A stretch of 64,000 nucleotides of DNA from Minisyncoccota bacterium (GCA_020628915.1 JAHDEI010000001.1:19985-83984), one strand, 5' to 3'. Positions 755 to 1,238 are shown, numbered from the stretch's first letter. Numbers and translations are program-made. Notes: generated by a model not told the origin, from the sequence alone.

Positions 755-1012
755 ATGCAATTCCAATCCCGCACACTCACGTGCAGATGGTGCGACTTTA
801 CGGCTAGCACTGCTAGCGGGGACACACACCTCGATGATGATCCTCGAGAAAAAGATCTTTTTGAAACTATGGAAAATGAATTTCCCGATGATCACCAAGA
901 GCTAATGTTGCATATCATGAGCGAACACGAAGATATACCCGAAGCCGTTGAGCTGACAGAAAAGTATGAGAAACGTGTAGACGACGTTTATGCAGAATTT
1001 AACCCAGATTAA
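755..1012 (+). CDS. Hypothetical small acidic protein with an N-terminal CxxC...H motif
   Basis: An 85-aa ORF with an AAAGGAG RBS. It is very acidic (D/E-rich) and carries CRWCDFTAST...H near the N-terminus. GC content is visibly higher than in the flanking genes. No family recognised. Confidence 0.55.
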   Translation: MQFQSRTLTCRWCDFTASTASGDTHLDDDPREKDLFETMENEFPDDHQELMLHIMSEHEDIPEAVELTEKYEKRVDDVYAEFNPD

Positions 1013-1025
1013 AAAGGAGATAAAA

Positions 1026-1238
1026 ATGGCGGCAACTGCTAAAGATATCGCGGCGATGTTAAGTCGCCCTCCAAGACTAGATGTGCCAAACAAAGCACGT
1101 GTGATTGATCCAGATCAGCGTATTCCCTGCCCACATGAGGGATGTGACTTTGTGGCTACTCCACATGGAGAGTCTTGTGCTGAAGGCGTTCTTAACGGCC
1201 ACCGGGCCAGTAAACATTTTTGGATCCCGGGCCGGTAA
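1026..1238 (+). CDS. Hypothetical small basic protein with a C2H2-like Cys/His cluster
   Basis: An AAGGAGA RBS sits 6 nt before the ATG at 1026. The ORF track starts this frame at 990, but that start has no RBS. Motif IPCPHEGCDFVATPHGESCAEGVLNGHRASKH follows a C-x4-C...H-x4-H pattern and shares the CDF-x-A-[ST] half-site with the upstream ORF. Confidence 0.5.
   Translation: MAATAKDIAAMLSRPPRLDVPNKARVIDPDQRIPCPHEGCDFVATPHGESCAEGVLNGHRASKHFWIPGR

What the first reader, a model, noticed from the sequence alone, without database searches (positions are those of the whole stretch)
755..1238. A pair of small Cys/His-motif proteins (85-aa acidic, 70-aa basic) sharing a C-D-F-x-A-[ST] half-site
ORF A has CRWCDFTAST near its N-terminus, followed by a very acidic D/E-rich body that could act as a DNA mimic or anti-factor. 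ORF B carries IPCPHEGCDFVATPHGESCAEGVLNGHRASKH, a C-x4-C...H-x4-H arrangement like a C2H2-type zinc finger, which is rare in bacteria. Both genes have strong RBSs, are tandem and nearly abutting, and share the 'C-D-F-[TV]-A-[ST]' motif after the second Cys. This suggests paralogous zinc-binding knuckles. One plausible reading is an acidic/basic partner pair, such as a regulator with its antagonist, or a toxin/antitoxin-like couple.
Basis: partly seen in the sequence, partly recalled or inferred. Interest (0 to 1): 0.65.

Follow-up and report, generated by a model that had tools for sequence, protein, structure and literature searches.

The report
Two orphan zinc-finger-like mini-proteins
Two tiny neighbouring genes, found only in this one uncultured bacterium and wedged into a ribosomal-protein operon, probably encode small proteins with zinc-finger-like Cys/His motifs, but there is no evidence yet for what they do, so this is a modest curiosity rather than a discovery.

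Summary
They form a self-contained unit: an 11/12 promoter, AGGAG + 6 nt + ATG before each gene, and an intrinsic terminator. Codon usage and the period-3 GC pattern favour the annotated frames, so they are probably real genes.

The shared C-D-F-x-A-[ST] motif is real. A second shared block, L-x2-H-x2-S-x-H-x2-I-P, means both proteins read Cys-pair ... L-x2-H-x4-H, which is C2H2-like.

- **ORF A:** strongly acidic (pI 4.2, net -17).
- **ORF B:** not basic (pI 7.8, net +0.8).
- **Homologues:** neither has a full-length homologue in any collection searched.
- **Relatives:** the two nearest relatives (Ca. Pacebacteria-like, candidate phyla radiation) go straight from the rpmI terminator to the rplT leader. 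The roughly 750-bp block is therefore lineage-specific.
- **C2H2 similarity:** B's finger resembles C2H2 repeats of one bacterial multi-finger protein, but only at motif level (13-16 bits per repeat).
- **Paralogy of A and B:** a generic alignment is not significant. A test anchored on the putative ligands gives p of about 2e-4.
- **Structure:** the models are too poor to test zinc geometry.

The regulator/antagonist and toxin-antitoxin readings remain untested guesses.

The parts
667..697 (.). Intrinsic terminator hairpin after rpmI (L35). It marks the upstream edge of the lineage-specific insert.
   Evidence: 11-nt perfect inverted repeat with A-run and T-run flanks. The relatives L001 and L081 have a terminator at the equivalent place, followed directly by the rplT leader promoter.
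701..728 (+). Promoter-like site for the A-B unit (TTGAAA, 16 nt, TATAAT).
   Evidence: Matches 11 of 12 consensus positions. A consensus match only; not shown to be active.
744..748 (+). Shine-Dalgarno AGGAG of ORF A, 6 nt before the ATG.
755..1012 (+). ORF A: 85 aa, pI 4.2, net charge -17. C10-x2-C13 (CRWCDFTAS, nt 782-808) and L50-x2-H53-x4-H58 (nt 902-928) are separated by an acidic 39-residue spacer. A C-terminal helix is predicted.
   Evidence: Only a self hit in the protein collection.
1015..1019 (+). Shine-Dalgarno AGGAG of ORF B, 6 nt before ATG 1026. This favours the 70-aa start over the SD-less ATG at 990.
1026..1238 (+). ORF B: 70 aa, pI 7.8. It has a single C2H2-like segment, C35-x4-C40-x18-H59-x4-H64 (nt 1128-1217), with an extra Cys51 and His37/His47. 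The N-terminal 34 residues have no recognisable domain.
   Evidence: Only a self hit in the word-indexed search.
1248..1272 (+). Intrinsic terminator that closes the A-B unit.
   Evidence: 10-pair stem followed by a T-rich tail.
1293..1441 (+). Second mini-unit of the same lineage-specific insert: promoter (1293-1320, 11/12), AGGAG (1339-1343), an 18-aa hydrophobic ORF MGTSMLLILIILLLVISD (1350-1406) and a terminator (1418-1441).
   Evidence: Absent from L001 and L081. Whether it works together with A and B is unknown.

Best explanation
Window 698-1447 is a lineage-specific insert between the rpmI terminator and the promoter of the rplT leader. Its first unit is a small, independently transcribed two-gene operon. 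The operon encodes two orphan micro-proteins that each carry a Cys-pair knuckle followed by an L-x2-H-x4-H helix signature, that is, C2H2-like zinc-finger motifs with unusually long spacers (x18 in B, x39 in A).

**Shown**
- The gene anatomy and the coding signal.
- The motifs themselves.
- The absence of the cassette from the nearest relatives and of homologues from all collections searched.

**Inferred**
- Each protein folds around one Zn(II). In B the likely ligands are C35, C40, H59 and H64. In A they are C10, C13, H53 and H58.
- The two proteins are divergent paralogues.
- B uses its finger plus its N-terminal tail to bind a nucleic acid or a protein. The very acidic, helical A is made in stoichiometric amounts from the same mRNA and acts with or on B.

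The biological role is not determined. Possibilities include regulation, an accessory function of a mobile element, or an interaction with a host.
For: **Anatomy**
- Promoter 701-728 (11/12), AGGAG + 6 nt + ATG for both genes, and terminator 1248-1272.

**Coding signal**
- The annotated frame is the best of six. Codon log-odds are 0.133 (A) and 0.067 (B) per codon, against 0.199 +/- 0.084 for real genes. No off-frame chunk reaches 0.067.
- GC1 exceeds GC2 and GC3 in both.
- The mRNA is not unusually structured (z = -1.54), and there is no Rfam hit.

**Finger in B**
- Exhaustive HMMER against 1.84 billion representatives returns, besides itself, P0004 and P0005.
- P0004 has six tandem units of C-x4-C-x12/15-H-x4-H and passes the Pfam thresholds for zf-C2H2_aberr, zf-H2C2_5 and zf-C2H2_4. 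B residues 31-64 align to it with all four ligands and L(-3) in register.
- 1000 shuffles of B score at most 12.5 bits against P0004, compared with 41.0 bits observed.
- The knuckle IPCPxxGCDFVAT recurs in one phage protein, followed by L-x2-H.

**A and B related**
- Two ordered shared blocks: CDFxA[ST] and L-x2-H-x2-S-x-H-x2-IP. The ligand-anchored shuffle test gives 46 of 200,000.
- With residues 22-49 removed, A hits about a dozen C2H2 Pfam models at 18-20 bits.

**Lineage-specific**
- L001 (L20 72% identical) and L081 (71%) have infC-rpmI-terminator-leader-rplT with no such ORFs.
Against: - No homologue of either full-length protein exists, so there is no evolutionary evidence (conservation, dN/dS) that the frames are under selection.
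- The P0004 and P0005 E-values come from summing non-independent repeats. The best single repeat scores only 13-16 bits. The same summation produced a clearly spurious top hit, P0003, at 2.7 bits per repeat.
- Pfam does not recognise either native protein, even at E <= 10.
- The spacers (x18, x39) lie outside the classical x12. The aromatic residue sits at +2 rather than +4 after the second Cys.
- A generic A-B alignment is not significant. The anchored test is post hoc.
- The construct of A with residues 22-49 removed was designed to give x12, so that test is contrived.
- The AF2 models are of low confidence and do not show a beta-beta-alpha unit. B has pLDDT 49.6. A has pLDDT 62.0 and is all-helical across CDFTAS. 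The fold search returned nothing.
- Codon scores are at the low end for real genes. Shadow ORFs reach them in 5% (A) and 11% (B) of cases.
- B's ligand set is ambiguous: Cys51, His37 and His47 are also available.
Confidence: 0.4

Rival explanations
1. The ORFs are translated junk or very young genes. The insert would be a recently acquired or decaying piece of DNA whose ORFs happen to be open and carry no selected function. The Cys/His patterns would be coincidence.
For: - Strict orphans in 5.8 billion clusters, 1.84 billion representatives, IMG/VR, JGI metagenomes, phages and plasmids.
- Absent from both nearest relatives.
- Codon scores are in the lower quartile (A) and the 6th percentile (B) of real-gene chunks.
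- The generic A-B alignment is not significant.
- Structure-prediction confidence is poor.
Against: - Three small ORFs in about 700 bp each have the same optimal AGGAG + 6 nt + ATG geometry, in a genome where few genes use a strong SD.
- Promoter and terminator bracket the ORFs exactly.
- Open frames of 85 and 70 codons are each expected with only about 0.5% and 1% probability at this base composition (my estimate from 41% GC).
- The period-3 GC pattern fits coding sequence.
- Cys pair and His pair occur in the same order, with the same flanking residues, in both proteins.
Confidence: 0.25
2. The pair is a toxin-antitoxin-like or other addiction/defence module of a mobile element. In this reading acidic A neutralises B, possibly together with the neighbouring 18-aa hydrophobic peptide unit.
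For: - The architecture resembles type II TA loci: two abutting genes of 70-85 aa with their own promoter, the upstream product acidic, lineage-specific, placed in an intergenic site.
- Next to it lies a strongly expressed-looking 18-aa hydrophobic ORF with its own terminator. Its size and composition recall type I toxins such as Ibs (this comparison rests on my own knowledge).
Against: - No hit to any toxin, antitoxin or defence model in Pfam, NCBIfam, PADLOC or PHROGs.
- Mobile TA families normally have very many homologues; this pair has none.
- B is neutral, not a basic toxin-like protein.
- No flanking repeats or integrase.
- No antisense promoter was found for the peptide unit.
- GC3 is only mildly above the host value, so there is no clear sign of recent transfer.
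Confidence: 0.1
3. A and B are functionally unrelated neighbours. B would be a single-finger nucleic-acid binder. A would be an acidic DNA-mimic or anti-factor, for example an anti-restriction-type protein, whose CxxC is incidental or a remnant of another Cys motif.
For: - A is 28% D+E, net -17, and predicted helical. That composition is typical of DNA-mimic proteins (my own knowledge).
- A shows no similarity to P0004 or P0005.
- TCRWCDF also occurs as the first part of a C-x2-C-x5-C cluster in a phage protein of 331 residues (L164).
Against: - A lacks the third Cys of that cluster (T19 in its place).
- A has H-x4-H with the same flanking residues as B.
- No similarity to any known DNA mimic or anti-restriction family in Pfam, PHROGs or PDB.
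Confidence: 0.15

Closest known systems
Tandem C2H2-type fingers of bacterial 'eukaryote-like' proteins (P0004: 322 aa; Pfam zf-C2H2_aberr, zf-H2C2_5, zf-C2H2_4; on a bacterial contig flanked by ankyrin and WD40 proteins)
   Same: B residues 31-64 align to each repeat with both Cys, both His, Pro after the first Cys, Gly before the second Cys, and Leu at -3 of the first His in register. Example: QRIPCPHEGCD...LNGHRASKH against IRLGCPYEGCK...LNGHINKVH.
   Different: - B has one finger, not six.
- B's spacer is x18, against x15 or x12.
- B has no aromatic residue at +4.
- Similarity is 13 bits for the best single repeat.
- Native B is not recognised by any Pfam C2H2 model.
- A shows no similarity at all.
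[quoted passage not shown]
   Same: It is a bacterial protein with a single Cys2His2 site and an H-x4-H pair. It uses one finger plus flanking regions rather than an array. A shares the C-x2-C spacing.
   Different: - No sequence similarity and no hit to the ROS_MUCR Pfam model.
- Spacers are x18 and x39 rather than x9.
- A and B are half the size of Ros.
- Ros/MucR is a widespread conserved family, whereas these are orphans.
C-x4-C-x10/11-C-x2-H repeats of P0005 (weak Pfam Zf_WRKY19, 21.7 bits, below threshold)
   Same: The knuckle is nearly identical: CxHEGCDF[IV]AT, with a third Cys 10-11 residues later (B: CPHEGCDFVATPHGESC; P0005: CEHEGCDFIATSMRGQFC).
   Different: - B lacks the His at +3 after the third Cys (CAEG against CAKH).
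- P0005 has no L-x2-H-x4-H.
- P0005 is a repeat protein of unknown origin on a 1.1-kb contig.
Type II toxin-antitoxin operons
   Same: Two small abutting genes, an own promoter and terminator, an acidic upstream product, and patchy lineage-specific occurrence.
   Different: No member of any known toxin or antitoxin family was detected. The downstream protein is neutral. The pair has no relatives elsewhere.
Small zinc-finger micro-proteins of prokaryotes and their viruses (for example haloarchaeal C(P)XCG zinc-finger micro-proteins, and single C2H2 proteins of crenarchaeal viruses; recalled from my own knowledge, not tested)
   Same: Size class under 100 aa, one Cys/His metal site, often orphan or narrowly distributed, function mostly unknown.
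   Different: Those are mostly CxxC...CxxC zinc ribbons. No sequence relationship was found here.

Membership tests
Classical C2H2 (beta-beta-alpha) zinc finger | Ligand pattern C-x2-4-C-x12-H-x3-5-H | tested here: not met
   B is C-x4-C-x18-H-x4-H and A is C-x2-C-x39-H-x4-H. The Cys and His sub-spacings fit, but the central spacer does not. P0004's accepted fingers have x15 or x12.
Classical C2H2 (beta-beta-alpha) zinc finger | Match to a curated C2H2 profile at or above its threshold | tested here: not met
   No Pfam family at E <= 10 for native A, native B or B residues 31-70. Only an artificial A with residues 22-49 deleted reaches 18-20 bits, against cut-offs of 25-27.
Classical C2H2 (beta-beta-alpha) zinc finger | Conserved hydrophobic positions (aromatic after the second Cys, Leu three residues before the first His) | tested here: inconclusive
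   Leu at -3 is present in both (L56 in B, L50 in A). Phe is at +2 rather than +4 after the second Cys in both.
Classical C2H2 (beta-beta-alpha) zinc finger | Beta-hairpin plus helix fold with tetrahedral Zn | tested here: inconclusive
   Single-sequence AF2 gave pLDDT 49.6 for B, with short strands around C35/C40 and no helix at 56-64. A gave 62.0 and is all-helical. Coordinates and metal geometry are not available. No alignment could be built because there are no homologues.
Ros/MucR prokaryotic zinc finger | C-x2-C-x9-H-x3/4-H within a domain of about 58-87 residues, matching ROS_MUCR | tested here: not met
   No Pfam hit. The spacers differ. The Ros ligands C79, C82, H92 and H97 are taken from PMC7283297.
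C-x4-C...C-x2-H finger of the P0005 / Zf_WRKY19 type | Third Cys 10-11 residues after the knuckle, followed by x2-His | tested here: not met
   B has the third Cys (C51) at x10, but Gly where the His should be (CAEG). A has no third Cys.
Cas4 / PD-(D/E)XK-type Fe-S cluster motif (considered for ORF A's CRWCDF) | C-x2-C-x5-C plus a distal fourth Cys and a nuclease domain | tested here: not met
   A has only two Cys, with T19 where the third Cys would be, and no nuclease domain. The resemblance to L164 FTCRWCDFHALC is confined to the residues the search pattern forced, plus one more.
Type II toxin-antitoxin system | Membership of either protein in a known toxin or antitoxin family | tested here: not met
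   Pfam, NCBIfam and PADLOC are empty apart from a 13.6-bit MutT noise hit.
Type II toxin-antitoxin system | Bicistronic small-gene architecture with its own promoter | tested here: met
   This feature is not specific to TA systems.
Type II toxin-antitoxin system | Toxicity of one product, neutralised by the other | not testable with these tools
   Needs expression experiments.
DNA-mimic / anti-restriction proteins (considered for ORF A) | Surface array of carboxylates that mimics the DNA backbone; binding to a DNA-binding target | not testable with these tools
   Only the composition is compatible (28% D+E). There is no sequence or fold match.

The most novel reading that the evidence does not exclude
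A and B found a new family of paired, paralogous 'split' C2H2-like zinc micro-proteins. In this reading the neutral single-finger B binds DNA or RNA through finger plus tail. The acidic A is the same finger with a 27-residue carboxylate-rich insert between knuckle and helix, and it acts as a built-in nucleic-acid mimic that titrates B. The pair was captured next to the rplT leader in one CPR lineage. A further possibility is that the pair, together with the adjacent 18-aa hydrophobic peptide unit, forms a previously undescribed three-part accessory module.
Probability: 0.08. Interest if true: 0.55.

Novelty: new variant of a known kind. Interest (0 to 1): 0.3.

Why it matters
If both proteins really bind zinc and work as a pair, they would be a minimal bacterial example of C2H2-like fingers with very long knuckle-to-helix spacers. 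They would also be a finger paralogue turned into an acidic partner. That would interest people studying the origin of C2H2 fingers outside eukaryotes and the many unannotated micro-proteins of CPR bacteria.

As it stands, the value is mainly a well-delimited example of how a roughly 750-bp block carrying complete mini-genes can be inserted inside the infC-rpmI-rplT region without disturbing its regulatory leader. With a single occurrence and no conservation, the finding cannot yet address any open question.

Tried and rejected
**Homologue searches**
1. Word-indexed searches with A, with B, and with a profile of B plus the P0004 repeats returned only self hits.
2. Exhaustive HMMER with B.
   - P0003 was rejected as an artefact: ten near-identical repeats of 2.7 bits each.
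   - P0004 and P0005 were kept only as motif-level resemblance.
3. Pfam, PHROGs, PADLOC, NCBIfam and PDB sequence searches gave nothing.
4. tblastn and blastn against phage and plasmid records gave nothing better than E = 0.5.
5. IMG/VR and JGI metagenome scans with A or B found no relatives.
6. Exact-sequence look-ups of B, L20 and L35, intended to find the source record or sister strains, were not on record.

**Motif scans of IMG/VR**
7. C-x3-G-C-D-F-[VI]-A-T gave one phage protein.
8. T-C-x-W-C-D-F-x-A gave three spurious frames plus one Fe-S-type protein.
9. I-P-C-P-x2-G-C-D gave 21 hits, all unrelated or chance except that same phage protein.

**Structure**
10. AF2 on each protein alone gave low confidence. 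Foldseek with the A model had a best E-value of 3.6, so it was not used.

**Other ideas tested**
11. Foreign origin from base composition was rejected as unproven. B's 52% GC comes from codon positions 1 and 2. GC3 is within about 1.5-2.3 sd of host genes and within sampling error. Palindromic hexamers are only mildly enriched, in the top 3-4% of windows.
12. No flanking direct or inverted repeats that would mark a transposable element.
13. The region is not a structured RNA: no Rfam hit and z = -1.54.
14. A frameshifted single ancestral gene was considered. B's frame is closed by TAG at 978-980, and B has its own SD, so this was not pursued.
15. No paralogues of A or B in the rest of the window or in the 160 fetched loci.

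Full report
**Observation**

Window 1-2400 reads as follows:
- infC (3' part, to 461) and rpmI/L35 (468-659)
- a strong hairpin terminator (667-697)
- a promoter-like site, TTGAAA-16-TATAAT (701-728, 11 of 12)
- ORF A (755-1012, 85 aa) and ORF B (1026-1238, 70 aa)
- a terminator (1248-1272)
- a second promoter (1293-1320, 11 of 12), an 18-codon hydrophobic ORF (1350-1406) and a terminator (1418-1441)
- a structured leader (about 1484-1645) and rplT/L20 (1656-2393)

Each is preceded by AGGAG, 6 nt, then ATG (744-748 and 1015-1019). The longer alternative for B (ATG 990, 82 aa) has no SD, so the 70-aa form is preferred.

A is very acidic: 24 D+E against 7 K+R, pI 4.2, net -17. B is not basic: 9 K+R against 8 D+E, pI 7.8, net +0.8. 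The 'acidic/basic' description is therefore only half right.

**Are they genes?**

There are no homologues, so the evidence is intrinsic only.
- A codon model trained on 38 long ORFs of the window gives 0.133 (A) and 0.067 (B) log-odds per codon in the annotated frames. Those frames are the best of the six in both cases.
- Real-gene chunks of 75 codons average 0.199 +/- 0.084. No off-frame chunk reaches 0.067. 'Shadow' ORFs of 60-110 aa reach these values in 5% and 11% of cases.
- Both ORFs show the host's period-3 GC pattern, with GC1 highest.
- Only 7 of 61 long ORFs have an SD of 5 nt or more at their first start, and many genes look leaderless. Yet all three small ORFs of this block have the same optimal SD geometry.
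- The RNA is not unusually structured (z = -1.54) and matches no Rfam family.

I take them as real genes with a probability of roughly 0.75.

**The motifs**

BLASTP of A against B instead picks out a second block, LMLHIMSEHEDIP against LNGHRASKHFWIP. Both proteins therefore read Cys pair, then CDFxA[ST], then L-x2-H-x2-S-x-H-x2-I-P:
- A is C10-x2-C13-x39-H53-x4-H58.
- B is C35-x4-C40-x18-H59-x4-H64.

Statistically the case is mixed. A generic local alignment is matched by 355 of 2000 shuffles. When the sequences are anchored on the second Cys and the H-x4-H, 7 of 26 non-anchor positions are identical, and this is reached in 46 of 200,000 shuffles that keep the anchors. The anchors are the natural ones but were chosen after the fact. 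I treat paralogy as plausible (about 0.35-0.4), not shown.

**Relatives and orphan status**

- Word-indexed searches of 5.8 billion clusters return only the proteins themselves, from an NCBI record with a 116-kb contig.
- Pfam, PHROGs, PADLOC, NCBIfam and PDB sequences give nothing.
- Phage and plasmid collections, IMG/VR and JGI metagenomes give nothing.

Using the adjacent L20 as an anchor, two close relatives were found:
- a Ca. Pacebacteria MAG (L001; L20 72% identical, IF3 C-terminus nearly identical)
- a metagenome contig (L081; 71%)

In both, rpmI is followed by a terminator, a -10 box 6 nt upstream of CATTAG, the conserved leader, and rplT. There is no ORF A, ORF B or 18-aa ORF. Window positions from about 698 to about 1447 are therefore a lineage-specific insert placed between the rpmI terminator and the leader's own promoter (-10 TATGAT at 1472-1477).

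No flanking repeats mark a mobile element. B's 52% GC (top 0.4% of windows) comes from codon positions 1 and 2. GC3 is 0.40-0.42 against 0.337 +/- 0.038 for the host, which is within sampling error for 70-85 codons. Composition therefore does not prove foreign origin.

**What B resembles**

The one exhaustive HMMER job, run with B against 1.84 billion representatives, gave three non-self hits.
- **P0003** is an artefact: ten near-identical repeats at 2.7 bits each.
- **P0004** (322 aa) has six tandem fingers that pass Pfam thresholds for several C2H2 families. It lies on a bacterial contig among frr, pyrH, tsf, argS and ankyrin/WD40 genes.
  - B residues 31-64 align to its repeats with both Cys, both His, P(+1), G(-1) and L(-3) in register.
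  - Shuffled B never exceeds 12.5 bits against it, compared with 41.0 bits observed.
- **P0005** has CxHEGCDF[IV]AT...C-x2-H repeats. Its knuckle is almost identical to B's, but B lacks the final His.

The caveat is that the best single repeat scores only 13-16 bits, and the library-wide E-values (1e-5 and 4e-4) rest on summing non-independent repeats. This is motif-level resemblance, not demonstrated homology.

A degenerate DNA scan of IMG/VR found one phage protein (L161 13833-14171, minus strand, 112 aa) next to a serine recombinase. It carries IPCPIPGCDFVAT followed by QLAKH, and it is itself an orphan.

A shows no similarity to P0004 or P0005. Only a contrived version of A, with residues 22-49 deleted to restore x12, gives sub-threshold hits to about a dozen C2H2 Pfam models (18-20 bits). 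TCRWCDF also resembles the start of a C-x2-C-x5-C Fe-S motif in a phage protein (L164), but A lacks the third Cys.

**Structure**

Without homologues only single-sequence AF2 was possible.
- B: pLDDT 49.6.
- A: pLDDT 62.0, four helices (11-20, 30-42, 46-55, 62-82).
- Foldseek with the A model found nothing (best E 3.6).

Metal geometry could not be assessed.

**Mechanism**

*Shown:* a self-contained bicistronic unit, two Cys-pair/His-pair micro-proteins, and lineage-specific orphan status.

*Inferred:*
- Each protein folds around one Zn(II) in a C2H2-like manner with a long knuckle-to-helix spacer.
- B binds a nucleic acid or protein through one finger plus its N-terminal tail. From my own knowledge, this is the logic known from single-finger binders such as Ros/MucR and GAGA factor.
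- A, co-translated from the same mRNA, is an acidic helical relative that acts with or on B.

Confidence in this package is about 0.4. The partner or antagonist step alone is about 0.15.

Rivals:
- non-functional or very young ORFs (0.25)
- functionally unrelated neighbours, with A as an acidic mimic (0.15)
- a TA-like or defence module, possibly including the 18-aa peptide (0.1)

**Comparison with known systems**

The pair works most like a single C2H2-type finger, but membership is not established.
- **Classical C2H2:** the spacer rule and the curated-profile criteria were tested and not met.
- **Ros/MucR** (C79, C82, H92, H97, that is x2/x9/x4; PMC7283297): not met.
- **P0005-type CCCH and Cas4-type Fe-S patterns:** not met.
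- **Type II toxin-antitoxin:** only the non-specific bicistronic architecture is shared.

**Verdict**

This is a real, neatly delimited pair of orphan genes with zinc-finger-like signatures. The zinc-knuckle and paralogue idea is plausible, and the acidic/basic partner or TA idea is unsupported. Orphan micro-proteins are common in CPR genomes, and with one occurrence there is little to build on, so interest is 0.3. The best novelty label is a new variant of a known kind: C2H2-like micro-proteins with atypical spacing.

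Noticed in passing
window 1472-1645 (+); L001 5632-5818; L081 3762-3975: A conserved structured leader lies directly upstream of rplT. It has its own -10 box 6 nt before CATTAG, a closing helix GCUCUGGU/ACCAGAGC, three internal hairpins and a terminal hairpin followed by a U-run. MFE z = -2.98. 7 of 43 predicted pairs show compensatory changes among only three sequences. No Rfam match, including L20_leader, at E <= 10. It looks like an undescribed L20 autoregulatory attenuator of this CPR lineage.
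   Followed up: partly
window 1293-1441 (+): A complete mini-unit sits in the same lineage-specific insert: an 11/12 promoter, AGGAG + 6 nt, the 18-aa ORF MGTSMLLILIILLLVISD and an intrinsic terminator. Its size and hydrophobicity recall type I toxins such as Ibs, or a Leu/Ile-rich leader peptide. No antisense promoter was found. It is absent from L001 and L081.
   Followed up: partly
window 1656-2393 (+), residues ~125-245 of L20: L20 carries a C-terminal extension of about 120 aa (a Lys/Glu-rich linker plus a helix-hairpin-helix-like domain, KIEGIGPKIAETL...). The extension alone matches many proteins of Saprospiraceae, Pirellulaceae, Gracilibacteria and others at 50-80% identity. Both relatives' contigs end right after this gene.
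   Followed up: no
whole window, e.g. starts of the ORFs at 15332-16486(-), 27023-27814(-), 31624-32655(-), 47258-47800(-), 56383-57501(+), 58281-59117(+): Many genes have a TATAAT-like box within about 10 nt of the start codon and no SD, which suggests widespread leaderless mRNAs. Only 7 of 61 long ORFs have an SD of 5 nt or more at the first start.
   Followed up: no
window 10649-11549 (+): A second cluster of three SD-led small ORFs (72, 83 and 91 aa) lies after the 1074-aa ORF at 7365-10589. No check for homologues or for presence in relatives was made.
   Followed up: no
L161 13833-14171 (-) (IMGVR_UViG_3300045003_000239): A 112-aa phage protein has an N-terminal CxxC...CxxC zinc ribbon and then IPCPIPGCDFVAT...QLAKH, which is 11 of 13 identical to ORF B's knuckle. 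It is encoded next to a serine recombinase and is itself without family.
   Followed up: partly
L159 4286-5254 (Logan SRR22388154 contig): A bacterial contig (frr, pyrH, tsf, argS) encodes a protein with six C2H2-type fingers and a signal-peptide-like N-terminus, surrounded by ankyrin- and WD40-repeat proteins. This looks like the eukaryote-like effector repertoire of an intracellular bacterium.
   Followed up: no
L001 5819-6000: The Pacebacteria relative has its own extra segment of about 180 nt between the leader's terminal hairpin and rplT. The window and L081 lack it. This spacer region seems to be a hotspot for lineage-specific insertions.
   Followed up: no
window 778-1361: The insert contains many 6-bp palindromes that are common restriction sites: 2x GCTAGC, CTCGAG, AGATCT, 2x CACGTG, GATATC, GGATCC overlapping CCCGGG, CAGCTG, CATATG and ACTAGT. 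The enrichment is modest (top 3-4% of windows) and was judged not significant.
   Followed up: yes
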